Positions 30,231-62,857 of a stretch of DNA of 64,000 nt are shown one piece after another (the stretch's first letter is position 1; each line of letters begins with the position of its first letter). The translations under genes were made by a program, and so were the position numbers. The DNA lies in NCBI GenBank assembly GCA_026770705.1, contig JANJGN010000039.1:6138001-6202000 (forward strand). Direction: 5' to 3'. The stretch is from Isurus oxyrinchus (Eukaryota). Under the pieces are notes generated by a model, which was not told the origin of the DNA, did no database searches, and saw nothing but the letters and a program-made list of their open reading frames with translations.

Positions 30231-30249
30231 AGCAAAATGCCCATCCAGG

Positions 30250-32766: not shown

Positions 32767-33043
32767 GTAAATTCCGGGAGGTTTTGTTCCTGAAGCGATG
32801 AAAGTGTTCTACCTCAAAATGTGTTTTTTGCTACTTGGAGTGAATGGCAGACACCAAATTCCTTGTTGTTATCACAGATCCAATACTAAGAGGGAGTTGT
32901 CAGGAGGAACTCCCAGTTTTATATATGTACAACAGTCGGATGTTTAGGTGCACTGCGGTTCCTAAACTTTCAACAAAAATCACCTTGTTCTGCTTCACTG
33001 ACGCCTTTACCTATGGTCCTTTAGAGGATATTTCTTGCAAGAA
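32767..33043 (+). pseudogene. GPR139-like GPCR pseudogene (exon 2, TM1-TM3)
   Basis: After a pyrimidine tract and CCAG acceptor in phase 1, it reads KFREVLFLKR*KCSTSKCVFCYLE*MADTKFLVVITDPILRG...FCFTDAFTYGPLEDISCKK. This aligns with NLVTIVILRRRRCGLSNCVTRYLEAMAVADLLVIILDLILR...VWFTVTFTLDRFVAICCPK of the intact gene. TGA stops lie at 32799 and 32841. Confidence 0.8.
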
Positions 33044-33062
33044 GCATTTGCATTTATTCACG

Positions 33063-33205
33063 NNNNNNNNNNNNNNNNNNNNNNNNNNNNNNNNNNNNNN
33101 NNNNNNNNNNNNNNNNNNNNNNNNNNNNNNNNNNNNNNNNNNNNNNNNNNNNNNNNNNNNNNNNNNNNNNNNNNNNNNNNNNNNNNNNNNNNNNNNNNNN
33201 NNNNN
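33063..33205. other. Assembly gap (143 N)
   Basis: Run of N, flanked on the right by a CT-rich tract. Confidence 1.
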
Positions 33206-33449
33206 TCTCGCTCATTCTCTAATTCACTTGCTGTATAACTCTATCGTGCTCTCATTCTCTGTCACCCTTGCTCTCTGTGCCTCGGTCTCTCACCCTCTCG
33301 CTTGCTATTTCTCATTTTAATTAATCCGTTCAATGTTAAGTCTTCTATTTGTGTAGCCATCTGTCCATCTATCAGCCTGTAGGTCTGCCTGTCTAACAAT
33401 GTTGATGATTGGTTTTCACGACGCTATCACAGATCAGTATCCAAGCAAT

Positions 33450-34260
33450 AAAAAAGTGTCAGCGTGGTACCTTGTGTGAGGTTACACCAGTTCTATGTTA
33501 GCATTACCGATTGCAAAATTTGCATATCAAACTTGTACCAGCGGGATAATTAAACTTTGTCCGCGCACGCTTTGCTTGAAGGGTTTTTTATCCTCTTCTC
33601 CTCAAGTTTTGAAATCATTGGTTGATTTCTCAATTTGGCTGTGCCCAAGGTTTGCATACATTTTCACGTTTATATTTTTAAATGTGTTCTTCAATTGCTG
33701 GGGGTTTCTTTTTTTGGCCCACAAGATATTGCACGTTGCATTGCCAGAGGAATCCACGGGCATATCTGGGCAGGGTATCTGTTCTCTCTACAAGCTTGAT
33801 TGTCACAGACAAGCATCCCACATGTGCCCTGTTTGGACATGGAGTGGGCCCCGAAACAGAAAACGGTGGCAAACAACTGTGCTTTCCGCATTACTTCCCC
33901 TGGGGCTTCAGGCCTTTTCATTTACATATATATACTTTGATCTAAATTGATAAAAGTTTATTTCTCAGCATCAATTTCTGGGACAATTGTTCACCATCCC
34001 CTATAGTATTCACCTGTTCCTCAGGTATATACACCCCGGAATTGTCTTGACAGCAGACGTAATTCCTTTTTTTTGGCGTTTCAGTTTGAAAATTTTTCTC
34101 TCATAAGGAGAGCGACTGACATAATCTGTTTGTTGAATGACTGAAACAAATTGATTTCTTCAGGCAGTATGAATGCGTTAATGGAGATTTATCTGCTATA
34201 TAAATAGGAGTTTCTCTGAAAGTATCATCTCATGATTTCCAGCAGTCTCAGTATAACTGC
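33450..34260 (-). mobile_element. Gypsy-type gag remnant
   Basis: The minus strand has PEEQVNTIG and a Cys/His-rich decayed zinc-knuckle-like segment (CFGAHSMSKQGTCGMLVCD). Confidence 0.35.
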
Positions 34261-34409
34261 TTCAGCAGCAGTTTCTTAGTGCTTATCACAGTGACTAGAA
34301 TTTGTTATGCTTCATCATTTGCTGACCATTTACAAAACTGTTGCAGAATCTCTCGTGGCACCATGTACGTGGATTCACATATTCTCAGGCAAACAATATA
34401 CACTGCTGA

Positions 34410-34720
34410 TTTTCCTTCCATTCAGGGGATATGGGCAACGTTAGCTAAGCCAGCATTAATTGCCTTTCCGCAATTGTCCTTCAGAATTTCGTGGTGAGCT
34501 CTCTTTTCCAGCTGCTGCAGCCTGTGTGGTGTAGGTTGTTTTGGATGTTCAGCACTTTGACACAGAGACAGCGAGGTAACGGCGACATATTTCCAAATCA
34601 GGGCGATGTGTGGTTTGGAGGGTAACTTCCAGCTGGTTGCATTCGCAAATATCTATTGCTCTATTCTTGCTAGATGGTAGCGCCTGTGGGTTTGCAAAAT
34701 TAACAAAAGGACGTCATGCA
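34410..34720 (-). mobile_element. CR1-type LINE 3' end
   Basis: CCATTCAGGGGATATGGGCAACGTTAGCTAAGCCAGCATTAATTGCC...GTGGTGAGCT is homologous to 3683-3930. Confidence 0.65.
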
Positions 34721-34862
34721 CGCAAAAGGTGGCAGTTTTTCTCTGTTCCCTGTTCCGAATGCTATGGTGCCAGTTCTAACCCGATATTCTGTGTTTAACT
34801 AATGTGGTATCTCCTTCTGGCTCTCCGATGGGTTTACCATGTTTCTTTTTCTTTCTGAAATG

Positions 34863-34870
34863 TATTTAAA
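34863..34870 (+). promoter_or_regulatory. TATA-like box upstream of the orphan GPCR exon 1
   Basis: TATTTAAA about 90 bp upstream of the ATG at 34957. It parallels the TATTTATA upstream of the intact gene. Confidence 0.35.
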
Positions 34871-34956
34871 GGATACCGAGATTTGTATGTTTCAACTCAG
34901 ACCTTCTATTATTTGCTGTGTATCCATCTCAGCAGGAAAGTCTCCTTCTCATAAAG

Positions 34957-35026
34957 ATGGCAAAACTGAGACTTCGCCAGATTGAAGACATTTACTATTC
35001 TATTCTCGGGGCTACTGGTGTACCTG
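34957..35026 (+). pseudogene. GPR139-like GPCR exon 1 (open frame; probable partner is the defective exon 2 at 43378)
   Basis: AAGATGG start context. Reads MAKLRLRQIEDIYYSILGATGVP plus G, then a GTGAG donor at 35027. It has the same phase-1 position and TM1 motif as YFPILALVGVS-G|GTAAG in the intact gene. Confidence 0.75.
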
Positions 35027-35544
35027 GTGAGAGCATAAAAACATCATTGGATGTATAAATGGATGTTGACTTTGTTCTCAAACGACGTTTCTGATAACGT
35101 GAAATGGTTTCTTTACTGTTGGAGAGTGTTCAAAGCTGAGATGCCAATTTAACCTGAACGTCACCTGATTTCTTATTTTTGCTGCATCTCTCATACGGGA
35201 GTTTCCAGTGATGACATTTTATTTATTCTATAGGGAATGTTTTGTAACTGGGTGGACGCTGCAATAAATGTTATAACCAAGTGCAAACCGAGCTTGACGT
35301 TGTCGATACCACAATCTGTGCAAATCAATGCAAGATTCACCTTGAAATAATTGAAAGTGTTGGCTAATGGTTTCCAACGGTTTTGCAATATTGCCAGCAC
35401 GGAATCCCTGCCAAATCCCTTACATTTTGAGGCAGCAATAATTTTTACAGCTCAGTATGCAGGAAGGAGAGCTGGGCTGAAAGATAAAGCTCTGCGTGCT
35501 GAGGACAATCGACTATCTTCCTTGTTTGTATATAGATTGAAAGA

Positions 35545-35950
35545 TATTCATTTCTGTAGCATCTTTTATCGACCACCTTAATACATTTACATGAAGTATA
35601 GACACTGTAGTAACGCAGATGTGCGACAGTCAGTTTGTGCTCTGGAAGCTTCCACACGCAGCACATTGACAATGACCCGATGATCTTTGTTTGTGAGTTT
35701 TAGCAGAGGTATTTCTATCAGTCAGGGCACAAACGGTTAAGAACAGCTTGTTCTTCAAAATGGTGGCAAGCTTTTTTCTTCTTACGGTTAACCCGTGAAT
35801 CCATTTTATATACGTTCTGAAAGTTGCTACTTCAGACAATGCATAACTACCTCACTACGGCAATGGAGCATTAGCTGAGAATTTTGTTCTCAAGTGCTGC
35901 CGCCGGACATAAATCGGTAACATCTATCTCATCATGGGGATTGGTACGGA
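35545..35950 (-). mobile_element. Deu-domain SINE (SacSINE1/AmnSINE-related), decayed
   Basis: The minus strand reads ...CCATTTTGAAGAACAAG...AGATCATCGGGTCATTGTCAATGTGCTGCGTGTGGAAGCTT...ACAAACTGACTGTCGCACATCTGCGTTACTACAGTGTCTATACTTCA, matching the DeuSINE core and tail as I recall it. Confidence 0.6.
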
Positions 35951-36179
35951 GTCGTAGGTGGTACAATATTGAAACAGCAATGCAACCTGAGCACATATCT
36001 CATTCTCATTTTTGTGCTCAATTTAACTTCTCACCAACCACTTCCTGCTGCAGTAAACCACACTACCAAATATAAGTGATTTACATTGAGAATTGAAGTG
36101 GATCGATATTATGAATTTTCGGACATTCCTGTCCCTTTGGAAAGCCCACATTGCAATCATATGCAGGTGCTTACAAAGG

Positions 36180-36660
36180 GACATAGGAACCTAAGAAATG
36201 GGAGTAGAAGTTGGCCATTCGGACGCTCGAGCTTGATCCACTATTGAAGTATCTCATGGCTGAAATCATGTCTCAAGCTATTTTCTTGCAATATCTCATA
36301 GTTATGTTGCATTTAATGTTTACAGATTGGCTCATTTATGCCTTCAACATACGCAATGGTTGAACCACCACCGCAGCTGAAAGGAAATAATTTCGAACAT
36401 TCATCACCCTCTGAGTGAATAAATTTCTGCTCACCTCAGTCATAAATATCATATTTTTGTTCTGAAATTGTGTCTCCGGCTTTCAGTCAACCCCGATATG
36501 GGAAGCATCCAACCTGCATCTACACCACTGAAGCTCTAAGAAAGGTTTGTGCTTCTATGAGATCACTCCTTATTTACCAAAGGTCCAAAGAGCTTGGGCT
36601 CAGTCTCGCCAATGCCTCCACATAGGCCAATCCCACCTAATTCCCAATTATATAAGGTGT
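36180..36660 (-). mobile_element. CR1 LINE 3' end
   Basis: ACATAGGAACCTAAGAAATGGGAGTAGAAGTTGGCCATTCGG...CACCCTCTGAGTGAATAAATTTC is an antisense CR1 tail. Confidence 0.7.
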
Positions 36661-36669
36661 AAGTCTAGT

Positions 36670-37370
36670 GAACTCTCCATTTCGCACTCCCTCACGTGTT
36701 ATCCTTACAATCAACCCCCATCGTCTCCAAATACAGACCATGACAATTTTACTTTTTTTTTATTTTGGAAAGAAGACCGGCAGTGTTTATGATACACTGC
36801 TTGAGATGAGGCCCATCAGTCACTCTGTTTGCTCTCCAATACTCAATTGCTTCACCAGTGAAACTCAATCGTAATTTTAGGAAGTATTGGGGCTTCTCGT
36901 TCACGGTTGTACAATTATCATTCACACGCCCTCATAGCCTGAATCAGCTTTTGCCTTCAAGAAGAAACCGGTCAGAAAGTAACATTTTCAACACGTCAGT
37001 GGCTGAATCAAAATCCATAACGAAGTTGGAAATCTCCAATTGCTTTCCAATGGCCTTGTAATTTCTCAACCCCCCACAATCAGTCTGTTGGGCACCTTGG
37101 GTGACATGAAACTTAACCGTAGCTGCCATGTAAAAGTTGGCCTCGAAAAGTAGGTCAGACATTAGAAAATACACTGAGAGTATCTCATCTATTAAGATTC
37201 AGATTCAGGGCACCATCAACTGCGCGTGTATTAGGAGAATGGTTAACAAACTGAGATGGCCGGGATTATTTCAGTGACAACAACAATTCAAAAACTCAGC
37301 ACAAGAAGAATGAAGTTGGCTGCTTGATCGGTATCACAACCATCACCATAAATGTTCCACACGATAATTA
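36670..37370 (+). mobile_element. CR1-type LINE RT fragment
   Basis: CCAATACTCAATTGCTTCACCAGTGAA...GTTCACGGTTGTACAATT approximates the FSCFINDLPS...FADDCT region. It is sense-strand homologous to 7355-7720 and 4000-4100. Confidence 0.5.
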
Positions 37371-37479
37371 CAGTGTTGGGGATCTGTCAGCCTTGTGAAT
37401 ACATATTCTGGTTTGTGCACAACTCTGCTGCAGCTGATTGTTCAGAGCGCCTGGTGAATGCCCAATTTTGAGTTGTTGA

Positions 37480-39500
37480 ACACGTTGACATTTACCTCAT
37501 TTAGCGGAATGTTTTTGCCACACAACGCGATGGAGGGAATCCCCAAGTGAAGGCGGATTTTGTGTGCTCAGGGACTGTGTGAGGGTCAATACTATCAATA
37601 CTGCCATGAGCATATCCACGTGGGTAGGTTATTGGGGCGAGTTCAGTTTTGTGTTTCCATCTTGTTAATTTCCTGACCACATGCAAAAGACCCAGTCTAG
37701 CAGTTTTCTTTATTACGTGGCCAGCTCGGCCATTAGTAGTGCTAGAGATTCTCTCTTGATCATAGACACGGAAGCCCCCTACGTGGAGTATATTTTTTAT
37801 TGGCATCCCAAAATCTTCCTCCATTGATGATCACTCATTCATCATCTGAGACGACCGATAGGGCTTAATTAGCAGTGGACTTTCCTTGCCCAAGTAATAC
37901 CTGATCCCATGAGATTTCATTGAATTTCCAATTACTTTTAAGGCTGTTTCAGATGCGTCACATTGAACATAAAAGTTTTGCACCGATGGCATTTAAGAAA
38001 GCAACAAAAAATGAGCGATGGCTCGAAATGTGATTGGGAATTAAGTTTTTAGATAGGGCTATTTAACTGAGAGGTTGGCTTATGATTGGGATGAGCTTTG
38101 AAAGCAATAAGAACTATTAATCTACAAAAGATAAACTGCTTGAATCGTTATGGTAGTGGAACTGCTGTCAATCAAGCAGGGTGCTTTGTCCTAGATTAAT
38201 TCAATATTCTTGAATGTTATTGGGACGTAACTCAACCAGACAAGTGTAGTATTTTCCAATCACACTCTTGATTTGCGCCTTGTAGAAGAGAGACGGGCTA
38301 AATGACAAGGGTGTTTGATGGATAATTATTTACTGTCGATGATCATTGACTGTCGCCGGTGTGTGCCGAATATAACTTGTTGGTTTTCAGCAGAGTTCTG
38401 GGTGTTGCCCAGGTCCTGTTAGTTACACATAGGCAAAGATTTCTTCAGCATCTGTTGAGTTGCAACTTTTGCTTAAGTTTTCGCAAATATGAGTGGATGC
38501 TATCTCCACCCCCCGCTCCCCAAACCCAAACCTTTTCTGAGCACATGATGGAGAGAGATTCATTGATGAAGTGGATTAAGATGGTTGCGCCCGGACTATG
38601 ACCTCAGCATCTCCTGCAGTGATATCAAGAGGCTGAGGTGGGTGACTTGCAAAAATAAAAATTCCTTTGTGCTCTGCATACTACAATTAGTAGAAACTCC
38701 CCCCACCCCCTTACATGTATTGACTCAAATTTCGCTTCCGATCCCTGCTACCATAAAATGACAAATGTTGTATTGATATGAAGCACAGTCGCTCTCGCAT
38801 CACATCATGAGTTCAGCACCAATGTCCATGTCTGTATCAAATCTGATCGAAGAGCTGGAGCTCAGAGACAACATATTATGAGCGTCAATGAACAGTTTAT
38901 GTCTTTTCGCGTAAAGGCCGGTATTTTAGCTGTACTATTACAACGTGGCGTGGAAGGATTTTTCAGGGACACTGATCTCCAATCCAATTGGTGAAATCTG
39001 ACAGGACCCATATCCTCTCCTTCATCCAGCCCCTTCAGTTGTTTCTTCATATCACGCTATGTGAATCACATAGGCTGAGGACTGGCCCCTGTGATGATGC
39101 CATCTTCAGAATGAGGACGGAATGACCCATCAACTCCTCACTTCATCCTGAATGTGGCTACAAATTCTTTAGCCATTTTTTAGCACTGATGTGCTGAGCT
39201 CCACAATCATTGCCGATGAGGATATGGGTGGAGTGTCCTCTGCAAGTGAGTTTTTTGAAATATGCAACAACATTTAAGACAGCATGTGACAGGAATTGAC
39301 GGCTGATATTTTCTTATTTGTTTGTGGGACCAATTAGCACTTTCTGTTTTGCGCTGCTTCCGCTGTTTTTGGCAAGCAAGTAGACTTACCTTGCAGATTC
39401 ATCAGGTTGAAACCTCGTTATTATCTGGGAATGGTGCCGCTCCAGACATATTACGTATGTCGGCAAATATCCTTCTCCAGTATCCTCGAACACTTGACTT
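37480..39500 (-). mobile_element. CR1-type LINE fragments (endonuclease to RT)
   Basis: Minus-strand MKKQLKGLDEGEDMGP near 39000 and EEDFGMPIKNILHVGGF near 37800. Homologous to 7950-8470. Confidence 0.55.
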
Positions 39501-42500
39501 CGAACACCTGGAAGGGCAAGAACATAGGGACAATATAAATTTCACATTCCTTTCCAAGTCACAAACCAAAATGACAAGGAATATTTCACCGTTAATTGAG
39601 TGACATTGCATCAAAAACCTGGAACTCATTCTTCGAGCACTGTGTGTCGATTTGCCTTACTTCAGCTGCAACACTATAAAACCATTCCCTTCAAGAATAA
39701 ATAGAGAAAACGGAATAAAGACTGATCTTGTCAATATATCGCAAGCAGAGGAAGTGCCACATCATGCTGAATCTATGAATAATGCGTCTTTCTGCATTGA
39801 AATGATGAACCTAGCTGACTCCTTTGTTCCGAATAGATTGAGACTAATCTCACATGCTTAAGTTATTTTAAGTAGTATCCAGTACCCTGGTCGCGAACTG
39901 AGAACATACACCTTCAAGTCACTCTTGAATATCCAAGTTTGTACACAAAAGGCTTGGCTGAAAATTTTGCCCACAAACAACCGCGCCAAACATCTTGCAA
40001 CACCCCCTCCACACCCTTGACCCCCAACCCCTACCGCCTTTCTATTCACAGCATTGAACCCGTCCCCATCAGGTCAAGGATTGCACTTCCGATTGGCTGC
40101 CGACACAGTTTTGAATCTCCCATTGCCTCCTGCCCGTTGTCATGGTCACATTGCTGTTAAACTGATGTCGGATTTCGGCTCGTGGACAAAATCCCATCCC
40201 TCTCTGTTTGATCAGTCTAGGATCATGGGCCAAAGAGGATCATGAGCCAAAGTGCACTGTACCTGGTCTCAGTTTATTTTCCCAACTGCAAATTTTTAAC
40301 GTGTCAGGAAGAGATCGTTGTTGTTTAAAATAATGGATAATTACACAGCATGTACATATTTTAATTTCTCTATTTAATTTAGCAGGAAAGCGTCTGGATT
40401 TGTTTTCATTGTATTCTTAATTTGATAGATACACTAATGGACCATCGTTTGCATTGTTCAATATTTCTTTCAGCTGATAATTTACCGATTCATTTTTTGG
40501 GTATTTCAACGTTTAATTCGGAAATATAACAGAAAATATGTTGTTAATTTATTGATTTATTTTATATAATTAGTCTTTTCAAACTTCGGCTGCATCAACA
40601 TGTAACTGTGAAAAATATTGTTTTTTAACGAGTTTCCCTATTGGCAGAGATGGCCAAGACAGTTTGAGTGCTGATATTTTTGTTAAATTTTTGCATATTT
40701 CATGAAAGCGAATTGATAGTATGGAAATGACAAATTAAATCTCAGTGTAAATGCATCATGTTGTAGGGATGTAAATAGTGGGTTTGCTCAGCTAACACCT
40801 GGATAGTAAAAGGGCAAATGAAGGCCGACTTTCATTTCTGTCGGACTTTGGTTCTTTCTTATGGATTTTGATTTTCTAATACATGCATCATTTCCAGTGC
40901 AGCCTAAGGGTCATCAGACAATCCCTACTCAGTTTATGCACATTATGTGACCCTGTAAGGTTGTTATGATTGGTCTGATGGGATCTGCCACAGCCAATCA
41001 ATATTGGATGCTTGCAATCGCTATTCAAAATTGTGAATGAGAGTTAGCTTATTAACTCACAAGCTGATCCAGAAATGTAAACCGTTCTTTATCCTTATTC
41101 GAATAATTCTTCTTAATGTTTTCAAAGTTCGTCAAAATCGTTAATCAACAACTTGCCTAAATAATCAGATTCAAATTATTGATTCACCATCCAATCAACA
41201 TACAATGCCACATTGCATTGTTGTTTTCCTAAGTTCCAGTGTGCAACGCCTATGCATCAGTGTGCAGCATTTCCTATAACCTTAAAACAACTTCATACTT
41301 CAATGAAAGCTCGATTGTGAAAATGTGAATTTTCCATTTCTAATCTGTTCCTCTCGAGCCTCACTGGAGATTTCAGTCGGAAAGCTGTTCTGAACCCTTA
41401 CCTGATCCATGGTAGGCTATTGCAACCGGGACTACACACACAATGGAATTTAAGGATATGCATTTAGTCTAGTGTTATGTAATTAATTTTGAAATGCACA
41501 AAATGATTTGATAAACGTTTGAATTAAGAAGTTGCATTTCTGGCTGCATCCAATTTGTCCCTTCAGATTCACTGAGTAATGCTACCCCTCGAAATGCAAA
41601 CGGAGGTTATTTAAGTAAGCAACATGACTTATATGATGCAGCCAGGATCATGCAAGGATCAGAACAATTTCGCTTCATTTTTACTGATGAGTGAATATCA
41701 TCAGTCTTTAATTGAATGCTCTTACTGTAAACTTCCGCATAATAACAAAGCATTGAATGAATTCACTAAAAAGTTCCTGCTTTTTGAAAGAAAATTAAAT
41801 ATGGATCTACCAAACAATTCTAAAATGCACTGGTATTCTGTTCCCGACAAATGTAAAATGAAATTAGAATAAAAATCATTACTTTAGAAATGGATTTGTT
41901 CTCTATCATCAGGTAATCAACAAATCGCAAACTAATTTTTCCAATCATGTTTTAGCTATTTCAAATACTTTACCAACACAAGTCGATGTGCAAATCATGG
42001 TCAATTTCTCTCTGGGTTTTCTACATTTGGTGTCCAGCAGGAATCAGTGTTCAATTTTTCATTTCTAAACGTTTCACAAGGATGCAGCTTCTGAGATGAA
42101 AATGATTCTTTTCTGCCCTTTCAGAAACAAATATTTTGTACTTCACCCGGTCAAAAAAGGGACCTCTCTCCTGTGCCCTGAGTTGGAAAACGCTGAGTTA
42201 AATCGCAGCCGAATAATTTTTCTGAATTGCTCATTCACCATGTTTTGGTTATCGATCTAATTCCCATTCCCCCTGCATTTTACCATATCTATTCAATGTG
42301 CTTGAAAACTGGCCTGCCTAGAAAAAAACATGGCCATGCACAAAACTAACTCTGCCCTGAAACTGCCAATAAATATTCCCCGACCAATATAATCAGTCTG
42401 CCTGACAATATCGCTTTTCTCCCATTTGGAGATTAAACTGCCCCTTGATCAGCACTGACTAAACCAGACTTCCCACCCTGCATAGTACATGTTGCTTCAG

Positions 42501-43377
42501 TCCTTCTGCAATGAATCAGCGAAAGATACTTTCTGAACTTTTCCTCGACAATGCTCACCTTGCCTATCAATGTCACATTACTCATCGTGCCTTAAAACTA
42601 CTGACTGGTCTGTCATGAACCCCTACTTCACACCGCTAGTCTCCATAAACATACTTCCTTACTTGTATTGTCGTTGAACGCCAGCATGAGGGCGCCTGAG
42701 TAAACATTCATTCAGCCTCTTCTATGTGGGACTTTTTTGTAGTCCAGTGACCATTATAACATTTCCTGTTTATTGCAATTCCACCTATACCATCCCAACT
42801 GCCCAGACCTGCCCAGGGCTACGTTTTTTCTTCAAGCTGTCTCTCCTGTTGCACAATGAAACATCCCACCACTTACTGAATCTATTAAATACCCGGCACA
42901 CTTTCCACCACTACATCTTACAGAACAGAACTCTACTATGCTAAATCTTTATTTTGTGCCCGCATTTCACAGTCCACATTGCACCTTCACACGTGAATTC
43001 GCTCGTTCCACCTCCTTTTTCTCACTTAAAATTTAACAAGCCGAGGCTTTTTTGGACCTTCAGTCAGTCCAGTACACATTCACCCTCAGCGCGCTGAATC
43101 TTCAGTGCACAATAGCTGTTCAGAATTCATTGAGGGTGCTGCTCCCTAAGGATGAATAATCAATTAACGCTTAACCATCCTGCGCACTTTCACTACGTTC
43201 AATGCATATATAAAACACGTTGCTATTGGAAATCATGCTAAACATGATTGCATTAAACAATTTAAAAGATGCATGAAGAAACTAAATTTGCAATGAATAC
43301 CGTTTGCTGCAAACAAAAGAAAAATATGTTCATCTTTGTTGTTTATCTCATGTTATGTGTCTCTCTCTCTCTTACAG

Positions 43378-43480
43378 TGAATGGCTTTGCAATTGTGAAT
43401 CTTTTGCGAGGAAAGCATGGTCTCTGCAAATGCATTACATACTATATGATGGCAATGGCAGCGGCTGGTCTCCTTATTGA
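43378..43480 (+). pseudogene. GPR139-like GPCR pseudogene (start of exon 2, TM1-TM2), truncated
   Basis: Strong acceptor CTCTCTCTCTCTTACAG|TG in phase 1, reading (V)NGFAIVNLLRGKHGLCKCITYYMMAMAAAGLLI. Similarity is lost after TM2, the frame stops at 43559, and a gypsy element follows. Confidence 0.8.
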
Positions 43481-43699
43481 TTGTGCTGTTATCACAATGA
43501 CCTGTTTAATTCTGGTCATTGAGGCCTGTGTGCCAGCTAGCTGCGACAATGCTTTATGAGTCACATCAGCCTCTTCTGGTTAACATTGATATCGCCCTTA
43601 TGGTCACTGCGTTCTGTAATACACTCTGTCTATGCTTCGTGGTAAGTTCTCTAATATAACTGTTTTATGTGTGGCTCTTTTTTCCTGTTACTCTACCAA

Positions 43700-46200: not shown

Positions 46201-46829
46201 TGGTTTAAATGGATTTCTAAAATACATAACATCAAGCCCTCAAGGAGGATATTGTTTTCATTACTGGACACAACAATTTTACAATAATTTGAAAGCATTT
46301 GGACAGTTGCAGAATAATTTCACCACTATCGCTCTGAGGAAGAGAATTATAAATTACTTAGCAAGATCGTAGCAGTTGAAGAGGGAAAGGTTCAACATGG
46401 CTCGGTAGGGAGAGAGTTAATAAACCTCATGGCGGTTTGAGTTTATTGTAAACAGGGCCAAGTGAACTGGTTTGTAAATGCTCAAAAGGAATCGGCAGGT
46501 TTGTAGCCCAGGGGCCGCTGACAGTTCAATAATCCTTGGGGAATGAAATGATGCTCCCTGATTGGGTGAGGTAGGTGTTGATCACCGGGCGGATTTCTCT
46601 GATTATGTCAGGCGAATGTCAACGAAATACCAAATAGGCTGAGTGAATCGTGGTTCACCTGGTCAATCATTCCGATTGGATGAGGTGGCTTTCAACAATG
46701 GGGTGCGTGAATTAATAGAGTGGTTGTTGTGATGGTGGTTTGGGGTAATGTTTGTGAGTCCCTGGGTGAAGCTCCGGCTTGACTGTGCTACCTGTAAGAC
46801 AGCAGGTGGAGCTCCCGGATTGGCTGAGT

Positions 46830-47040
46830 CTCTGAAAAATATGTAGAACCGATACTTCACGACAGTCTTTAACTGCTGTCTGATCATGGACTGACTCACC
46901 CCATAAATTAACATCTTTGTGCAGTAACTTTAATTCATCAGCATAAACTTGGCACGTTAACATATATAGTCAGGAAATCTATAGTATACTAATTCACTAA
47001 TTTTAACATATACGAATGTTTAAGATTCCCCGACCAGGAA
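46830..47040 (-). pseudogene. GPR139-like GPCR pseudogene (TM7 and helix 8)
   Basis: Minus strand FMLMN*SYCTKMLIYGVSQSMIRQQLKTVVKYRF aligns with FMLQLLSCCTNTWIYAVTQTRFREQLWKMLKYPF of the intact gene. There is a TAA at 46930-46932, and upstream similarity ends at the 50-bp array. Confidence 0.8.
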
Positions 47041-47462
47041 TGTGATTTTGTGCTGGTTAGAATACATTCATACAGGGTGTTGATAATTGAGTGGATTTAG
47101 TGCTGGGTAACATATATTCAGCAGAGTGTTTGATAAGTGAGTGGGCTTACTGCTGGTTAAAATCAATTGAGCAGAGTATCGATAAGTGAATGGGATTTAG
47201 AACTGGTTAAAATACATTCAACAGAGTGTTGATAAGTGAATGGGATTTAGAGCTGTTTAAAATACATTCAACAGAGTGTTGATAAGTGAGTAGATTTAGT
47301 GCTGCTGAAAATACATTCAGCAGATCATTGAGAAGTGAATGAGATTTAGTGCTGTTTAAAATACATTCAGCAGAGTGTTGATAAGTGTGTACTGGTTAAA
47401 ATACATTCAGCAGATTGGTGCTAAGTGAATGGGATTTTTTACTGTTTAAAATACATTCAGCT
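47041..47462. repeat. 50-bp tandem minisatellite (~8 copies)
   Basis: Unit GTGTTGATAAGTGAATGGGATTTAGWGCTGKTTAAAATACATTCARCAGA. ACAGAGTGTT recurs at 47221 and 47271. Confidence 0.92.
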
Positions 47463-49019
47463 GCCATTTCCATGTCCCCCATTCTTAATGCGCAAATCTC
47501 ATCCACGATGTGACTAACATTTAGTTCCTCTTTTGTTTCATGTGTGTTTGAAGGCTCTTTTAATGTATGTTGCCACATTTCTTGCCAGGCATGCGCTAAT
47601 GTCTCCAACCGAATTTTCTTTGGAAACTGTTTTGCATGTGCCTACATTTTCTCAGTCTTCTGGCCGAATGCTAATCTTGGCTTAATTGTGCACCGTTCCT
47701 TTCCAGGTATAAAACCCGTGCCTTTCTGAGTTAGCCACGGGGACATCACCCTTAATTTAGTTGATGACCATTCCTAGAATAAACTACTTTTTAATTATGG
47801 CGTGTGTGAATGGCCCCCACTCTCTCAGACTTTGCCTATACTCTCAAAGATTTGCAAACCGTTTAATCCTTAAAACCAACTTACTAATTTTCCACACACA
47901 TCTCAATAATTTAGTCACCATCTCACTGAGCGTCATCAACAATCTTTGATATAAAGTTCCATGTTGCTGCATCAGGGTTTTATGTGCATTTTAGTGAACT
48001 GGCAGCTGAGGCTGCAGAACAGATCCTGGGTTGACACAATCACTCATGTTTGTTGGATTGGAGGACACCACCTTTTTCTGAATGTCTGCCTCCCACATTT
48101 TAATTTCTTTCATATCCTGGCCATTAGGGCGCTCCCAATTCCATTCAACCCTAACATGTACCTCCTTTATCAGGGAAGAATCGATATGAATTAGCAGCCG
48201 ATCACGGCACAAGAATACATAAAGGTCCATTTATTTTTAATGCTTGAAATGATTTAAAGAAAAGGACGGCAACCACCCTCGGATATTCCTCATCGGGAAA
48301 CTAGAGTCGATTTGAAAGGACAGACAGTCACCACTCCCTGCATCATGACAGAGAAAACCATTCATATCTGATTTTACAGGGATAATCCACGGCTGCCCTC
48401 TCCAGAAATCCTCACAAAAGTCACCACTGGGACACTAAGGATGACCAGAAAGCGGCACAGAGGACGGCAGCAGCGCGAAAATAATGCGCCCCCTCCCCTC
48501 CCCGGTCACTAAAAGCTGGTTAGCCTGTGATGGTCATTATCGAAGGCCAGTGAAACGCTACCAGGAGACATCATATATGGGATTAGCTCACTTGATGTTC
48601 AAATGGGGGCAGACTGTATTTGAATGTAAGAGTGATAAATAGTCTGATTTCGTGTCGTTATTCTCCAACAATGTTATTGTGAAAAAGGGTCCTAGACTGA
48701 CTGAGAGCAGGGATCGAGTCCAACCCGCCTGACAGCAAACCCTCAGGTCGAATGTTGCTTTCCAATTTTAGCAGATGGCTCTCTGATCGAGCAGAATGAT
48801 ATGTTCAACATCCCAATAGCAGCACGGGGTCACGGCTTCGTTTACCTTTCACTGCAGTGAGTCTAGTGACTCCTCCTAAGGCACTTCCAGACAGGTTACC
48901 CTTCTGACATTGCATGTTTCCTGGCAGATTACCTTAACTGGGTGATGGATCTTTTGAGAAACTATTGTTATGTGGAATACTGTAACTCTATTGCATTCCA
49001 ATACAGCACTGACGGATTT

Positions 49020-49230
49020 CTGCACTGATGGACTGTCAGTACTGAATTGTACTGCAATATCTGTGCTTCAGTACTGAGGAGTTGCTGCACCGCCAGAGAG
49101 TCAGTACTGAGAGAGCAGGACACCGTCAGAAGCATCAATGCTGGAGCAGAGATGAATTACAGGATGGTCGGTACAGCTCAAGTGCTGCATTGTCGAAAGA
49201 TCAGTACTGGAAGTGTGCTGTACGTTGAAG
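49020..49230 (+). repeat. Decayed ~30-bp repeats (CAGTACTGAGGGAGTGCTGCAC type, SINE-derived)
   Basis: Recurrent TCAGTACTG...GCTGCAC motifs at about 49036, 49068, 49101 and 49201. Confidence 0.55.
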
Positions 49231-49479
49231 ACAGGGATAGAGTGAGACAAATGCAGAGGGAGAGAGAATGAAAGACAGAGATTTTGAGAAAAAAAAACAA
49301 AAACAAAAATAGAGGTAACAGGAAGGCGAGATGAAGAGAGAGGGTGAGAGAAAGAGGTGGACAGCACTGATGGAGCGCTGCACTATCGGTGGGTCAGTAC
49401 GAAATCATGCTTTTCTGTCAAATTTCAAAACCGAGGGGGTGCTGCACACTTGTAAGGGCAGCGCTGAGGGATCATTTCT

Positions 49480-49950
49480 GTTTATTTGTCTCTCCGTCTC
49501 TCCCTCTCTTGCTCTTCCTCTCACCTTCCTGTTATCTCTCATTTTGTTTTTGTTTCTTTCTCAACATCGGTCTGTCTGTCTCTCACTCATTCTTTGTCCT
49601 TCTCTCAGTCAATCCCTCTCTTAACTCCTTTTCACGTCCTCTGCCCTGTCACTCAATGTCGCCCTCTCTCCCTCTCTTATTGTACGTCTCTCCCTTTCTC
49701 ACTGTTGTTCTCTTCCAGCCTCTAGTTCTCTCTTTATCACTTTCTCGCTCTCTGTCTTTCTGCCGCTCTCCAGCCCAGCATGTTCACCTCTCACTATGCC
49801 TCCACCTCTCTCTCTATCAGCCTTTTCCTCTGCCCCCACTCACACTCTTTCTATCTATTTTTCAACCTGTCTTTGTCTTTCTCTGTCTGTTAAGCAACCT
49901 GCGTCTTTCTCTCCTTCTCTCTCTATATCAATCTGCATCTCTTTTAGGGA
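49480..49950. repeat. CT-rich low-complexity tract
   Basis: TCTCTC-rich sequence. It gives the spurious L/S-rich ORF 49389-50033. Confidence 0.9.
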
Positions 49951-51016
49951 GATCGAGGTCCAGTTGTGCCATCTTGCCCAACACACACACCTCAAATCCC
50001 CTGCAACACCGCCCCCTTTCTGCGCTGAATTGATACCCACTTCCGTTATAAACACAAGCATTCAATCGGAGCTGGCATGCTGCCCATGCACTGATTTCCA
50101 CTGATACCTCACTTTCACTTTGTTATCTTACTTGCGTTGTTGGTTACCCTAAGTCTACGCTGTGACCACATCTCCTCTGACGAGAGCGCACCACGCTGCA
50201 CTCTGACATGCCATTTCGGCTTCCAATCACGTGTTGGAAGGAGGACTCATGTCCAATCACTGAGAAGCAGCGGGCGGTTCCACCGGCGATTTTGGAAGTA
50301 GGCGTCAGTGGCTTAGTTCTCTGCTCAATCAGTGCGAGAGAGAAGTATAATGGCCATGTTTCGTCGGCAATGGAAGTGTGGAAATGGCTTGAGATGTGTT
50401 TCCTTGTTTCCTGCCTTACCGTGTGAGGCTTGGGGACGATGGGTTTGCATTCGTCCAATGGGATGGGAGAAGTAGGTCAGTGGTGAACATTCAGGGCCTC
50501 CCCTCGCCCCCGCACACCCCACCCTCCCACCACCATCTCCCACACCCCCGCTGCTGTAAATAAGATAAAATGATTTAATTCTGGAAAATCATGGTTTCTT
50601 TGTTCGCACAGTGAGAGACATTTTCCTCCATTCAAACTGAGCAATGAACTGATAAAATATTGGAAGCGCTGAGTGATTCTGTTCCTTTGATAAGGACACC
50701 TTGAACGCACAAGACAACACCATCCTACCCCCATTCCCCCGTGCCAGCTGGCAATGTTAAATTCAAGGAGAGAATTCATGAAACTCCTAGTAATTCAATT
50801 CTTCCAGATAGTAAACCCACTTCCACCTCACAAAAATCCCCACCCCATCTCCCAGCCACATCTGCTGAAAACGTTAAGTTAAATGTTAACATTCAGCAAG
50901 TTCGCATTGATTCTTTCTGACCAGTGACAGACCCATAGCCCCTGCTGAAAATGTGAAATAATGTCCTATAAATGTCAGATATTCAGCTGTTCTAATCATT
51001 GAAATAAGTAAAGAAT

Positions 51017-51894
51017 TTAAGTGAAAGGATATTTCAACATTTTCCACAACTGCTCCCTGAACCTAGTCTGTGTCACAGCATAAATCCAAGTGTTTGTGCA
51101 GCAACTAAGGAGCTGCAGCATGAAGCCCAATTCCATAACAAAAAAATCTAGATACAGGGAATTATAGCCTAAATCAGACAACCGGATCCATATGGAAAAA
51201 AACATTAGCATTCCCCATAAAACGATGAAATTGGCTGAAATATAAAAGAGTAACATGATCGATTTCTTTCGATTCTCCACCGCTGGGTCTTTGGGACTTT
51301 GCCCAGTCCTGTGAGGCCGGAGTCTCTTGCGGGCCCTGCTGGTCACTAAAATATACTCGATGGTCAAAATATTGATGAGCAGGATCAGCACAAATGGGAC
51401 ACACGGTGTTAGAATCTGATGGGTGAACTCGATTGTTACCCAGGTAGGATTGAACAGAACCTCCTTTCTGTAACCACAAAACGAGGGGAAGTTTACCATC
51501 CAGTACTGACCTGTGAACAAAAAATACCAGAAAATGTTCTTTGAACAGCTCAGTGCAATGACGGTTCCCAGAATCACAGCTGCCGTTTTCTCACTGCAAT
51601 ATTTAGTTTTCAGCTTCGGGCAACAAATGGCCACAAATCGATCCAAGGTAAAAGTGACAGTGAACCACACAGAACAGTCAGTGGCTGCATAAAGCAGGAC
51701 AGCATGGATATTACACACTGAGATTGATCGCAGGAAAGAAAAATACTTATCAAACACAATTGGAATATGCCTCAGTATCAGGTCCAGGATAATGACCAGT
51801 AGATCAGCGACTGCCATGGCCTCCAGGTAACGGGTAACACAATTGGAGAGGCCACACCTCCGGCGCCTGAGTATCACAATCGTGACCAGGTTCA
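51017..51894 (-). CDS. Class A GPCR, GPR139/GPR142-like (probable G-protein coupled receptor 139 family), exon 2
   Basis: Acceptor TTTCCTTGCAG|TG and an open 878-nt frame. It contains TM2 MAVADLL, TM3 C...DRFVAICCP, TM4, TM5 LTPCVPF, TM6 RKKSIMLL..IS..F..LW, TM7 SCCTNTWIY and helix 8 FREQL, with stop TAA at 51017-51019. Confidence 0.93.
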
Positions 51895-53239
51895 CTGCAA
51901 GGAAAGGTAATAAATAATAAAACGCTATATCACTCTGGTACCAAGGTTGCCAGTAAAATTGAGATGCGATGGAGATGTGTTACAGCAGCCTCCAGTGTAT
52001 TGAAATGAATGGTCCAGAAACAAGGTATAAAAAATGTCTGTGATATAGTGGAAGGCAGGATACATTGAATGGTTAAAATAAGGAGGTGGGAATAAGGTGG
52101 AGATGGGAGTTTGCGGGAGAGCGGGAATATTTGCGAGACAAAGGAGGAAAGGAGTAATCGGGGATAATAGGTGCGCATAGCGGTGATAACAGCGCATGGA
52201 GTGGCGGGCGAGCGTGCCCATTACGTGTGGTACCCATGGGTGATGGTGGAACTCATGAGTGAGAGGGGAGACGTGTTTGAGTGAGAGCAGCCAGAGGTGA
52301 TGATTGCGTTCAGGCAAATAAGTGAAATGGGGTAATTTTATATTTTGCTCAACATATCTCCTGACAGGAAGGCTCTGCAGTTATGTGATGGAATGTTTCC
52401 TCGTCCAAGGATGTTATTTTAGGAATTTCGAAGAGAGCTTTCTTGCGAATTATCATTTCAAATTAAAGGATAAATGACCATTTCTTACAAAATACGAAAT
52501 GCAAGTTATAATGATCATGTACACGACAAACACTCATACACCCTCACACAAAAATAATAATTTGCAGAAATGCTGCACATACTTAAATTATTACGAGTGT
52601 AGAACAGGAACAGCTCATTCCTTAATGTGCTTAATGTGCTGGTTGTAAACATTGCAGGACTGAGGTGTTCATTCCTCAGCGATTGAAGACAAATGGAGTT
52701 TTTAAATATCTGGCTTTTAGTCTACAATGTGGTGGAGCCTCTGTGTTGAAGATATGTACCAACATGTACAGCCTATCAGCCTCTTTTAATGCCTGAAATC
52801 TTCAAAAATGTCTCTTAAAAATATTATTTTGAAGTGTTTCTATTATGAGCAAGAGTCTCCCTGTCCTTCGATCTTGGTGTTGGATTTCCATTCTCCAAAC
52901 ACTAAATTTTACGTTGTGTACAACTTCAGAAAATGAAGTTATGTTCAAACTGGTTTCTTAGTGGCACAGCTAGACAACCTGTCAAAGGCGAAAGCATCCA
53001 GAATATATCTTACCACAATCTCCTCTTCTCCTGCAGTGTACTCCGGATTCCTGGTGACAATGCCTGTGTCCTTAAGATGGTGATGATATGAAGGATGCAG
53101 CAGAACACTATGAACATCAGCACCCGCTCCAGCGTGTAAGGGAGGGTTCACTCCCAATGGCTCAGGAATGAGAAGCGTTTCTTTCCCACAATGGCGGGCT
53201 GATCCACAATGGCCTGTGCGACTCCATTACTCTTGGTAT

Positions 53240-53640
53240 TGAGGTGTTATGTTCACCTGCTTTGTTGGAGGTAGGGAATGGCAAAGTTGCATTCTTTTGA
53301 TCCATGTACCGACGGGGCAGCCTTCATCTATGAAAAGCCACTGTGTGCTTCCCTATGGAGCTACCGAGATGCTGGAAACGTCCGACTGCTTCATAATGAA
53401 GGTATTGTGGTTCTCGCCAGGATATTGGATGTTCACCAACGTGATGTACTGTGCATAAATATACATCAAATGGACGTGAATTCAGTCAGAATTCTTTCAG
53501 AGCCTTTAACTCTGTCCATTCTAATGGGGACACGGCAGAATTACGTACACCACTGGAATCCCTCTGCCCTGGGAGGCCATGGAACCGATCATTCTGCTTC
53601 TCCCTATTAAGGGAGCAAAAGTACAAACGTGGCACCCAAC
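53240..53640. other. Unidentified dispersed element, copy 2 (in the GPCR intron)
   Basis: Colinear similarity to 28810-29210 in the same orientation. Confidence 0.6.
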
Positions 53641-54171
53641 AGAGATGTTCTCTGTCAGCTAATGAATACATAGTTAGACAACATACTGGGAGATAATTAA
53701 TATAACATCAGCTATTCTCCTGCGTGTACTGTTCCGAATCCATAGCACTTTCAATGATCATGTGAACACCGTGTCCAAAGACAGCAGCTCCCTCACCCTG
53801 GTGTGCGGCCCCAGGTCCTGTTGAAGGAGGTGACTCGGGTCTGTAGCACCTTATTGTTGTGTCAGAGTTATATCCGTCTCTGAACATGTTTTGGGTGTAG
53901 GTTTGTAAAGTGTTCCTGACAATCCAGGGGTGCTTAGAGCAGTGCAACACCTATCCCCCCCAAAAAAATGTTAACAGACGGTCCCCTCCCTATTCACTCC
54001 GCTCATTTCGCTCGTCATGGTACAGGTCCAGGTGCACTGTAACTACATCCTCAAAACCTCTTCCAAGGTTGGGCCTATAGATACTCTATCCTCTCTCAAT
54101 TCATGCAGCCCTTCACAGCACAGCACCAAGGAGACAATCTAAAGCACTTCAATGGACTTTGAAATAACAGT

Positions 54172-54309
54172 GATTAAAAAAAACAACTGCAGATGCTGGA
54201 AATCCAAAAAGTTCTGTCGAAGGGTCATGAGGACTCGAAATGTCAACTCTTTTCTTCTCCGCCGATGCTACCAGAACTGCTGAGTTTTTCCAGGTAATTT
54301 TGTTTTTGT
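54172..54309 (+). mobile_element. Short Penelope pseudo-LTR insertion with inverted 5' segment and target-site duplication
   Basis: Flanked by TTTGAAATAACAGT at 54158-54171 and 54310-54323. It contains an inverted tail (AACTGCAGATGCTGGAAATCCAAAA) and a hammerhead-like module at 54210-54248 nearly identical to 2494-2595. Confidence 0.85.
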
Positions 54310-55103
54310 TTTGAAATAACAGTAGTCTGTCAAAGTCCGTTCAGCTGACAGTCAGATGTCTGGCCCGTTTCAATTAAACTGGAAAGGGTGCCTCGTATTT
54401 TTTAACAAATATTTAGCTGAGAGTGATTAACACAGCTTTTTGGTGGCCGGTACAGCCAGTGTTTCAAAGACATGCATCAAACATGCTGAAAACCCCCGGA
54501 CAACACGGGACACCATGTGTGAGTTTCTGGACATGGGATTGATTGGAGAAGCGAGATTAAATTGTGATCAAATCACACGATTGATAATTTTGAAATTGAC
54601 GGACTGAAAGACCTGGCAGCAATCTTGGCCCTTGAGCACAGGGATAATTGTGCAATGAGATTTGGCATGGGCAAGTTTACAAAGATTAGAGTTTTGTATG
54701 GGGTATGTTTTAAGAACGTTTGTAGCAGCAATTGTCTGGCCAGATTAACATTTTAATAGCCGAGTCTGGCTTGGACAAATGCACAGCTGAGGGATCATTC
54801 GGGTGATGTGTTGATGCAGCGAGGATAGTGGGTGAGACTAAATAGCTGGTAGAAGACAGGCTTAAGGATAGAAAAGGTGAGGGCTCACAAATCAGCTCAG
54901 GGCAAAATGGAGCATGGGAGTCGAAGACACTATGGTTCAGGCTTAGATAGTAGTGCGGTAGGCGGGTGGAGCGACTGGATATGGAACGATCATTAAAACG
55001 GGAACAGTAGCAAATGACTTCCATCTTCCTGAAATGTAAGAGACAGTAACAGTAATACAGTCAATCTGATTTAAGGAACAGATTGTTGCATATAGGTTCT
55101 TAC

Positions 55104-55278
55104 CGCTGACACCAACAAGAGCCAGGATGGGGAAGTAACCAACTTGGATTAACGAAATTACTCCCTCGATCCTAACAGCTAATGATATCCGATCTTGAGA
55201 AAGGTAGTAAAGCCCCGAGGATAAACTCCTGTCCATTTTTGTAAAATTCCAAGATTTTGTTCTAAGATTCTGATTCAT
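55104..55278 (-). CDS. Class A GPCR, GPR139/GPR142-like, exon 1
   Basis: ATG at 55278 (alternative ATG at 55236) reads MNQNLRTKSWNFTKMDRSLSSGLYYLSQDRISLAVRIEGVISLIQVGYFPILALVGVS plus G, then a GTAAG donor at 55103. G+TG gives Val in frame with exon 2. Total length is 350 aa, with an N-F-T sequon. Confidence 0.88.
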
Positions 55279-55412: not shown

Positions 55413-55420
55413 TATAAATA
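55413..55420 (-). promoter_or_regulatory. TATA-like box of the intact GPCR gene
   Basis: TATTTATA on the minus strand about 135 bp upstream of the first ATG. Confidence 0.4.
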
Positions 55421-62753: not shown

Positions 62754-62857
62754 TTGAAGAATTGCTCCATTTTTGCTTCCCCTTGCAATATTGATTATTG
62801 ACCTTTGGGAGAATTCCAATTTTTCCAGTGTGTTTTTGAGCAGATGAGTGTTTGCGT

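What the first reader, a model, noticed from the sequence alone, without database searches (positions are those of the whole stretch)
32767..55278. Birth-and-death cluster of GPR139-like receptors: one intact gene among several dead paralogues
Seen: one intact 7TM gene plus four clear paralogous pieces on both strands. Every copy that includes the splice site has the same phase-1 intron in TM1. Known: mammalian GPR139 and GPR142 are single-copy receptors for aromatic amino acids (Trp/Phe), and sharks have very small odorant-receptor repertoires. Inference: a clustered, divergent, pseudogene-rich family with this turnover behaves like a chemosensory or immune receptor family, so this may be part of an uncharacterised lineage-specific sensing system, for example for amino acids or peptides.
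Basis: partly seen in the sequence, partly recalled or inferred. Interest (0 to 1): 0.8.

Follow-up and report, generated by a model that had tools for sequence, protein, structure and literature searches.

The report
Large overlooked shark receptor gene family
This stretch of shark-like DNA holds one nearly complete gene and the broken remains of probably three others from a very large, fast-turning-over family of cell-surface receptors that databases label as GPR139, and whose varied binding pockets suggest a so-far undescribed way for sharks and rays to detect many different chemicals.

Summary
Two corrections: the four pieces are most simply three dead genes, and the 'intact' gene has a stop seven codons before the family's usual end.

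The family is very large. 1,373 protein clusters match; 116 of the top 120 are named shark proteins, auto-labelled 'probable GPR139', and paralogues group by species.

It is not GPR139 proper: human GPR139 scores 31 bits, two non-mammalian orphan lineages 89-98. A tree joins the shark family to an amphibian/sturgeon gene (95/94; the alternative is not rejected, p=0.07). GPR139's polar amino-acid anchors (R244, N271) are missing, so Trp/Phe sensing does not carry over. At matched background identity, pocket positions are 34% identical between family members against 73% between single-gene orthologues, as expected for a ligand-diversified sensor array.

Expression, ligands and dN/dS are untested. 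Ten literature searches found no description of the expansion. Verdict: a real, apparently undescribed receptor repertoire; whether chemosensory or immune is open.

The parts
55104..55278 (-). Exon 1 of the near-intact receptor gene (N-terminus and first half of TM1); second in-frame ATG at 55236; phase-1 donor G|GTAAGA
   Evidence: matched by 80 of 118 tblastn queries (the window's own protein among them)
51895..55103 (-). 3,209-nt GT..AG phase-1 intron inside TM1, just before N1.50
   Evidence: 26 of 152 database models of relatives lose similarity abruptly at the same point, as expected if they share the intron and were mis-spliced (inference)
51017..51894 (-). Exon 2: rest of TM1 to helix 8, open frame, ends in TAA
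   Evidence: Pfam 7tm_1; model pLDDT 87, pTM 0.85, seven long helices counting the partial TM1, plus helix 8
50996..51016 (-). Remnant of the family's C-terminal tail behind the early stop (six sense codons, then TGA at the family's commonest stop position)
55413..55420 (-). TATA-like octamer 142 nt upstream of the ATG (weak; pattern chosen after seeing it)
   Evidence: 25 such sites in 64 kb, both strands
32767..33045 (+). Dead copy A: start of exon 2 (TM1-TM3) behind a phase-1 acceptor; 2 in-frame stops; no exon 1 found; runs into an N gap
34957..35026 (+). Piece B: short-type exon 1 (ATG, 23 codons plus one base, donor GTGAG at 35027), TATA-like site at 34863; probably exon 1 of the gene whose exon 2 is C
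   Evidence: not significant by score alone
43378..43478 (+). Piece C: start of exon 2 behind a phase-1 acceptor, about 33 open codons, then similarity is lost (a frameshifted continuation to about 43540 is visible by eye only)
46831..47019 (-). Dead copy D: end of exon 2 (TM7, helix 8), 2 in-frame stops; its upstream side abuts a 50-bp tandem array
47038..47461 (.). 50-bp tandem array (8.7 copies) lying where the rest of copy D's exon 2 should be
   Evidence: no further family match upstream above control scores
33063..33205 (.). Assembly gap of 143 N that ends the readable part of copy A

Best explanation
The window is a piece of an old tandem cluster of a very large elasmobranch family of class A GPCRs. 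The family arose from an orphan GPR139-like lineage distinct from GPR139/GPR142, probably the one still seen as one conserved gene in amphibians and sturgeon. Genes multiply by DNA-level duplication with the intron kept, and many die (shown). Selection keeps the cytoplasmic, G-protein-facing half and lets the binding pocket differ between subfamilies and the loops and pocket rim differ within them (shown at protein level). So the family most likely works as a receptor array in which different members bind different outside-world chemicals and feed one common G-protein pathway (inferred), in sensory or barrier cells such as olfactory, gill, skin or gut epithelium or their nerves and leukocytes (inferred; no expression data). 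The window's subfamily keeps an aromatic floor (Y3.33, H5x43, W6.48) and a charged rim (D2.57, R2.61, E5.39, R6.59, E7.36), which suggests polar or peptide-like ligands with an aromatic group, not free Trp/Phe bound the GPR139 way (inferred). The window's own gene may be functional with a shortened tail, or in early decay.
For: Size: 1,373 clusters at E<=1e-10 among 1,852 candidates; 116 of the 120 listed carry shark names from 10 species, 4 are unnamed; a skate member is named; 107 representatives at E<=1e-30 even after 50% clustering. Clustering elsewhere: 10 of 13 Rhincodon and 11 of 25 Heptranchias hits share one contig length. Turnover: 17 species-label changes against a shuffled mean of 53.4, 0 of 200 shuffles as low; all 22 Heptranchias rows form one side of a branch. 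Pocket: at 50-60% background identity, 31 pocket positions are 34% identical in 604 family pairs against 73% in 564 lineage-A orthologue pairs; at 40-50%, 26% (1,516 pairs) against 64% (361, A) and 71% (16, B). Outer versus inner conservation is 0.27/0.55 (divergent set) and 0.62/0.80 (close set), but 0.55/0.60 in lineage A and 0.85/0.74 in lineage B. Origin: family plus lineage B 95/94. Context: catshark has only 2 OR + 6 OR-like, 3 ORA, 3 TAAR, 2 TARL and 32 canonical V2R genes (PMC11979771, section 13).
Against: No expression or ligand data were found. Inside the window's own subfamily the deep pocket is conserved (0.78-0.79, only slightly under lineage A's 0.81-0.87 at like background), so its many copies may bind similar ligands. 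The divergent set consists mostly of unnamed 50%-cluster representatives (37 of 41), which may include broken gene models or non-shark sequences; pairs are not independent; pocket positions were taken from recalled generic numbering, not from model coordinates. Species clustering can also come from gene conversion. The AU test does not reject family plus lineage A (p 0.072), and true GPR139/142 were not in the tree. No Olf/EBF-like site lies within about 600 nt upstream of either start codon (motif recalled).
Confidence: 0.6

Rival explanations
1. Narrow form: a further olfactory or taste-type receptor family of elasmobranchs, expressed sparsely in olfactory or solitary chemosensory cells and making up for the tiny OR/TAAR/ORA repertoires.
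For: Repertoire size, tandem clusters, pseudogenes and pocket divergence; small known repertoires.
Against: No Olf/EBF-like promoter site (weak); coding intron, unlike typical OR/TAAR/V1R genes (recalled); the catshark top-50 list for brain plus olfactory epithelium had no GPCR, which is uninformative because V2Rs were absent too.
Confidence: 0.3
2. An immune or nociceptive pattern-sensing array, comparable in role to FPRs or MRGPRs, on leukocytes, mast-like cells or sensory ganglia, detecting microbial, parasite or damage peptides.
For: Same evolutionary signature; closest solved relatives after GPR139 are peptide receptors (NTSR1, PrRPR, GHSR, NMUR2); cartilaginous fishes lack MAS1 and relatives (PMC8455134 passage).
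Against: No immune gene or other protein family in the window (0 of 65 frames hit Pfam); no expression data.
Confidence: 0.22
3. Receptors for endogenous ligands (neuropeptides or aromatic metabolites), as GPR139 is; the extra copies give dosage or tissue-specific variants.
For: Profile's best solved match is GPR139 (98 bits, next 78); Y3.33, H5x43 and W6.48 are kept in the window's subfamily; that subfamily's deep pocket is conserved.
Against: Endogenous-ligand lineages A and B conserve the pocket more than the rest; the family as a whole does the opposite. R6.51 and N7x38 are lost (0 of 111 close members keep either).
Confidence: 0.15
4. Mostly neutral genomic drift: segmental duplication in repeat-rich regions multiplies a gene of which few copies matter.
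For: Three of four loci here are dead, and the fourth has an early stop and 4 departures from 78 conserved columns.
Against: Over a thousand long open protein clusters; 78 columns at least 90% conserved in 152 proteins; region-specific conservation; no shared flanks between copies.
Confidence: 0.1

Closest known systems
GPR139 / GPR142 (vertebrate aromatic amino-acid receptors)
   Same: Best solved-structure match by sequence; no Pro in the TM7 NxxxY motif; aromatic floor 3x33, 5x43, 6x48 kept in the window's subfamily; databases give the family this name.
   Different: Only 30.9 bits to human GPR139; R244(6x51) is Leu, N271(7x38) is Phe, E108 is Leu, P6.50 is lost; dozens of copies per genome instead of one; two other vertebrate lineages are closer.
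Lineage B: orphan 'probable GPR139' of amphibians and sturgeon (P0247 family)
   Same: Joins the shark family at 95/94; shares the TFDR..CC.KLK..YC and DPEM..RR.SI.LL motifs.
   Different: One cluster per species among the 21 listed; pocket 95% conserved, keeps K6.51, P6.50, N7x38. Sister position not proven (p-AU 0.072).
Lineage A: orphan 'probable GPR139' of sharks, bony fishes, coelacanth, amphibians and reptiles (P0243 family)
   Same: 97.7 bits to the window protein; similar TM1-TM2 and helix-8 motifs.
   Different: Separate clade (100/99) with its own shark members and a species-like branching order; conserved pocket. Two records are named as TMEM183A isoforms, hinting at a fixed neighbour. 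A review table lists 'NMOGPR' and 'Orphan 139-like' families (PMC5207463); these may be lineages A and B, which I could not check.
Vertebrate chemosensory arrays (OR, TAAR/TARL, V1R/ORA, V2R, T2R) and FPR/MRGPR
   Same: Birth-and-death clusters, pseudogenes, species-specific blooms, variable outer face on a conserved inner face.
   Different: No descent from any of them (Pfam gives 7tm_1 only above cut-off; best matches are GPR139 and neuropeptide receptors); phase-1 intron in TM1; sensory expression unshown.

Membership tests
Class A (rhodopsin-like) GPCR | 7tm_1 profile above cut-off and a seven-helix fold | tested here: met
   54.4 bits against 30.5; model pLDDT 87; the 50 listed fold matches are all class A GPCRs, TM-score about 0.63-0.74
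Class A (rhodopsin-like) GPCR | D/ERY, C3.25 with an ECL2 Cys, W6.48, NPxxY | tested here: met
   DRF 143-145, C119 and C198, W285 present; NPxxY reads NTWIY and P6.50 is absent, as in most of the family
GPR139/GPR142 proper | GPR139/142 are the closest vertebrate relatives | tested here: not met
   30.9 bits to human GPR139 against 97.7 to lineage A and 88.6 to lineage B
GPR139/GPR142 proper | Trp/Phe site F109, H187, W241, N271, R244 (PMC5430874) | tested here: not met
   Y127, H217, W285 fit; F316 and L288 do not; 0 of 111 close members have N at 7x38 or R/K at 6x51
GPR139/GPR142 proper | One copy of each per genome | tested here: not met
   54 Heterodontus and 25 Heptranchias clusters among the 120 listed
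GPR139/GPR142 proper | Orthology by a tree containing true GPR139 and GPR142, and by synteny | not testable with these tools
   No true GPR139/142 sequence was identified among the stored hits; no neighbouring gene in the window
Co-orthologue of lineage B (amphibian/sturgeon orphan) | Forms one clade with lineage B to the exclusion of lineage A | tested here: inconclusive
   95/94 in the free tree; alternative 21.4 log-likelihood units worse but p-AU 0.072
Known chemoreceptor families (OR, TAAR, V1R/ORA, V2R, T2R, FPR) by descent | Sequence membership | tested here: not met
Chemosensory-type receptor array (works-like) | Large, lineage-specific, clustered repertoire with pseudogenes | tested here: met
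Chemosensory-type receptor array (works-like) | Pocket more variable than the signalling face | tested here: met
   Met between subfamilies (0.27 against 0.59 inner TM, p 2e-8, columns treated as independent); within the window's subfamily only loops and rim vary (pocket 0.79 against 0.82, p 0.82)
Chemosensory-type receptor array (works-like) | Positive selection (dN/dS over 1) at pocket or loop sites | not testable with these tools
   No coding DNA of relatives could be fetched
Chemosensory-type receptor array (works-like) | Expression in sensory or barrier cells; activation by exogenous ligands | not testable with these tools
   Catshark expression supplement unreadable; no mention in three other papers' supplements beyond one orthogroup label GPR142
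Olfactory-receptor-type promoter | Olf/EBF site beside a homeodomain site upstream of the start (motifs recalled) | tested here: not met
   0 of 1 strict and 0 of 40 loose sites in the window fall within about 600 nt of either ATG; homeodomain hexamers are common everywhere (187). True start sites unknown.

The most novel reading that the evidence does not exclude
Sharks and rays have independently recruited an orphan neuropeptide-receptor-like GPCR lineage into a chemoreceptor repertoire of the order of a hundred genes per genome, larger than their V2R set. It is hidden in databases under the name 'probable GPR139', is expressed in olfactory or other chemosensory cells, and has one conserved amphibian/sturgeon gene as its surviving bony-vertebrate counterpart. 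This would be a new vertebrate chemoreceptor family and would answer how sharks smell so well with almost no ORs.
Probability: 0.3. Interest if true: 0.92.

Novelty: new variant of a known kind. Interest (0 to 1): 0.72.

Why it matters
Cartilaginous fishes are described as poor in GPCRs (PMC8455134 passage) and as having tiny odorant-receptor sets (PMC11979771). A class A family with at least 54 distinct members in one shark's closest subfamily alone contradicts the first statement and offers a testable candidate for the second puzzle. The test is cheap: existing catshark tissue RNA-seq only has to be read for genes named 'probable GPR139'. The result also shows that this database name covers at least three lineages other than GPR139, and points to a single conserved Xenopus/newt gene through which the ancestral ligand could be found.

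Tried and rejected
More dead copies: two frameshift-aware scans found nothing else above the control maxima of 21.5 and 20.0; weak hits at 20180-20383 and 41025-41135 (E 0.024, 0.72) did not recur above controls and were dropped. No exon 1 for A or D was found. Neighbour genes: 0 of 65 stop-to-stop frames of 90 aa or more hit Pfam at E<=0.01 (low-complexity and receptor frames were left out); 0 Rfam matches; so no synteny. Transposon carriage or retroposition: rejected as the main route because the intron is kept and self-BLAST shows no shared flanks; old carriage cannot be excluded. Dead copies as recent offspring of the intact gene: rejected; 61-68% DNA identity, and each scores better to other species' members than to the window protein (A 46.2 vs 36.6, C 45.8 vs 33.1, D 42.7 vs 37.0). 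Fold search does not discriminate among class A receptors (GPR139 at rank 13). The protein atlas returned clusters with the same automatic name and adds nothing independent. Species names for the unnamed representatives could not be obtained, so presence in chimaeras stayed unchecked. Literature: 10 searches showed no paper on this expansion; the library lacks most subscription papers, and Yun et al. 2015, the likely source of the 'Orphan 139-like' label, is not held. Whale-shark orthogroup table: three rhodopsin-type groups are large in few taxa (199/17, 174/19, 157/12), but their members are not given, so none could be tied to this family. Rows dropped before counts: three models with duplicated ends (P0001, P0002, P0013), two partial models (P0113, P0116) and four unnamed hits from the close set (111 of 120 kept); 51 of the 120 lineage-A hits used (named, near full length); 41 divergent rows of 295-400 aa plus four named ones counted within that 41.


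Full report
1. What is in the window. A stop-free frame of 320 codons at 51979-51020 on the minus strand is exon 2 of a two-exon gene: ATG 55278, a 175-nt exon 1, a 3,209-nt GT..AG intron in phase 1 just before N1.50 of TM1, and exon 2 from 51894 to TAA at 51017, 350 aa in all. Exon 2 scores 54.4 bits on Pfam 7tm_1 and folds as a helical bundle with helix 8 at pLDDT 87; the 50 listed fold matches are class A GPCRs. No other protein family (0 of 65 frames) or RNA family was found; the rest is satellites, simple repeats and short dispersed repeats.

2. The dead copies. A family profile finds three exon-2 remnants at E about 1e-7 to 1e-8. A frameshift-aware scan gives 35.8 (A), 56.4 (C) and 38.3 (D) against a best reversed or complemented control of 21.5; a second profile agrees. 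A (32767, +) and C (43378, +) begin at AG acceptors in exact phase-1 register with the family's N-L-V-T-I. D (47019-46831, -) is the TM7/helix-8 end, cut on its upstream side by a 50-bp array. B (34957-35026, +) is an ATG-led 23-codon exon 1 with a G|GTGAG donor. B is weak by score (18.4; 12.5 against a control best of 11.0) but has the right anatomy and a TATA-like site 94 nt upstream, as the intact gene has 142 nt upstream. B and C are in order on one strand, 8,351 nt apart, so I count three dead genes, not four. They are 61-68% identical to the intact gene in DNA, match other species' members better than they match it, and share no flanks with it: an old cluster, built by DNA duplication.

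3. How intact is the intact gene. Its frame is open, but it stops one residue after KYPF. All 101 of 113 close relatives with a locatable tail have four or more residues there, most often eight, and the DNA behind the TAA still reads like that tail and ends in TGA at the consensus position. It differs at 4 of 78 near-invariant columns, where close relatives differ at a median of 1. The stop lies after helix 8, so the receptor may work, but early decay is possible.

4. Size and range of the family. Exon 2 retrieves 1,373 clusters (90% identity) at E<=1e-10 among 1,852 candidates. Of the 120 listed, 116 are shark proteins automatically named 'probable/putative GPR139': Heterodontus 54, Heptranchias 25, Rhincodon 13, S. 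canicula 6, Stegostoma 6, S. torazame 4, Chiloscyllium 3, Carcharodon 2, Pristiophorus 2, Mustelus 1; best identity 71%. Names of the other 1,253 were not shown, and some will belong to other lineages. Ten of 13 Rhincodon and 11 of 25 Heptranchias hits share a contig length, which suggests clusters there too. A skate member is named. After 50% clustering, 107 representatives remain at E<=1e-30. On a tree of 111 close members, species labels need 17 changes against 53.4 for shuffles: species-specific blooms, or gene conversion. The window's protein falls with galeomorph sharks (100/97), so the source is probably one (inference). An order of a hundred genes per genome is my extrapolation, not a count.

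5. It is not GPR139. Human GPR139 is the best solved match but scores only 30.9 bits. Two other vertebrate lineages score 97.7 and 88.6. Lineage A occurs in sharks, sturgeon, teleosts, coelacanth, amphibians and reptiles, with no mammal or bird among the named rows of the 120 listed. Lineage B occurs in 20 amphibians and sturgeon, and its next hits are the shark family (word-index search, so absence elsewhere is not shown). In a 59-row tree, lineage A is a clade with its own shark members, and the expanded family joins lineage B at 95/94; forcing it with A costs 21.4 log-likelihood units, p-AU 0.072, not a rejection. True GPR139/142 were not available for the tree, and the outgroups are unnamed. 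A review table lists 'NMOGPR' and 'Orphan 139-like' families beside GPR139/142 (PMC5207463, passages and table), so such bony-vertebrate orphans were noticed before; whether they equal A and B is unchecked.

6. The pocket. Mutagenesis places Trp/Phe in a hydrophobic floor (F109, H187, W241) with polar anchors N271 and R244 (PMC5430874, passages). The window has Y127, H217 and W285 but F316 and L288; none of 111 close members keeps either anchor, while lineage B keeps K6.51 and N7x38 and lineage A keeps R6.51 (register checked against the GPR139 alignment). Using 31 generic pocket positions (list recalled), single-gene lineages conserve the pocket more than the rest (A 0.73 against 0.58 overall, B 0.95 against 0.78), and the divergent family set does the reverse (0.27 against 0.59 for inner helices). 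At matched background identity of 50-60% the pocket is 34% identical in family pairs and 73% in lineage-A pairs. Within the window's subfamily the deep pocket is stable (0.79) and the loops (0.51) and rim positions 5.43, 6.58, 7.32, 7.35 (0.09-0.32) vary. Caveats: 37 of the 41 divergent rows are unnamed representatives, and pairs and columns are not independent.

7. How it most likely works. Shown: duplication and death in clusters; a conserved signalling face; a diversified ligand face. Inferred: an array of receptors for many outside chemicals feeding one G-protein pathway (0.6), split between an olfactory or taste-type role (0.3) and an immune or nociceptive one (0.22), with the remainder in gut or other barrier sensing. 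Rivals are an endogenous-ligand role (0.15) and drift (0.1). Against an OR-like programme, no Olf/EBF-like site lies near either start codon (weak test). No expression data could be read: the catshark atlas supplement was too large, and three other papers' supplements did not name the family (one scanned file of the skate paper and six files of the whale-shark paper were unreadable, and its large table was stored cut).

8. Novelty. The proteins are in public annotation under a misleading name. Ten full-text searches (listings and abstract starts seen) found no paper describing the expansion. Term searches in the catshark, zebra shark, bamboo shark and whale shark genome papers and in a 2025 GPR139 review (PMC12208981) showed no mention; I saw passages only, plus section 13 of the catshark paper. 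The whale-shark paper speaks of a paucity of GPCRs in cartilaginous fishes. Subscription papers were not searchable. A GPCR bloom is a known kind of event; its occurrence in this orphan lineage, at this scale and in this group, appears undescribed. I rate it a new variant of a known kind, interest 0.72, and 0.92 if sensory expression is shown.

Noticed in passing
window 9774-14963: Long degenerate satellite of 55-56-bp units (with a 28-bp sub-period), most homogeneous at 9882-11044.
   Followed up: no
window 2434-2597, 16315-16482, 32106-32271, 54209-54313: Four copies of a 100-170-bp dispersed repeat, 75-94% identical, one inside the intact gene's intron; probably a SINE or LINE tail (guess).
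   Followed up: no
window 62853-63077 and 63681-63915: Local direct duplication of about 230 nt, 91% identical, 828 nt apart.
   Followed up: no
window 29968-30474, 58564-58872, 24303-24590, 15550-15819: Frames that read by eye like decayed reverse-transcriptase or endonuclease pieces of retroelements (recalled resemblance); none reached Pfam E<=0.01.
   Followed up: partly
P0243 family: A conserved, apparently single-gene orphan GPCR lineage of non-mammalian jawed vertebrates also carries the name GPR139; two records are called TMEM183A isoforms, suggesting fused models with a neighbour.
   Followed up: partly
P0247 family: A second orphan lineage seen only in amphibians and sturgeon, with a 95% conserved pocket; likely has a specific ligand and is tractable in Xenopus.
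   Followed up: partly
P0265, P0267: Two unnamed proteins group with lineage A (96/85); possibly invertebrate-chordate relatives, source unknown.
   Followed up: no
family proteins: 26 of 152 database models lose similarity right before N1.50, so many annotations probably miss or mis-join the short exon 1; exon 1 comes in a long type (like the intact gene) and a short type (like piece B).
   Followed up: partly
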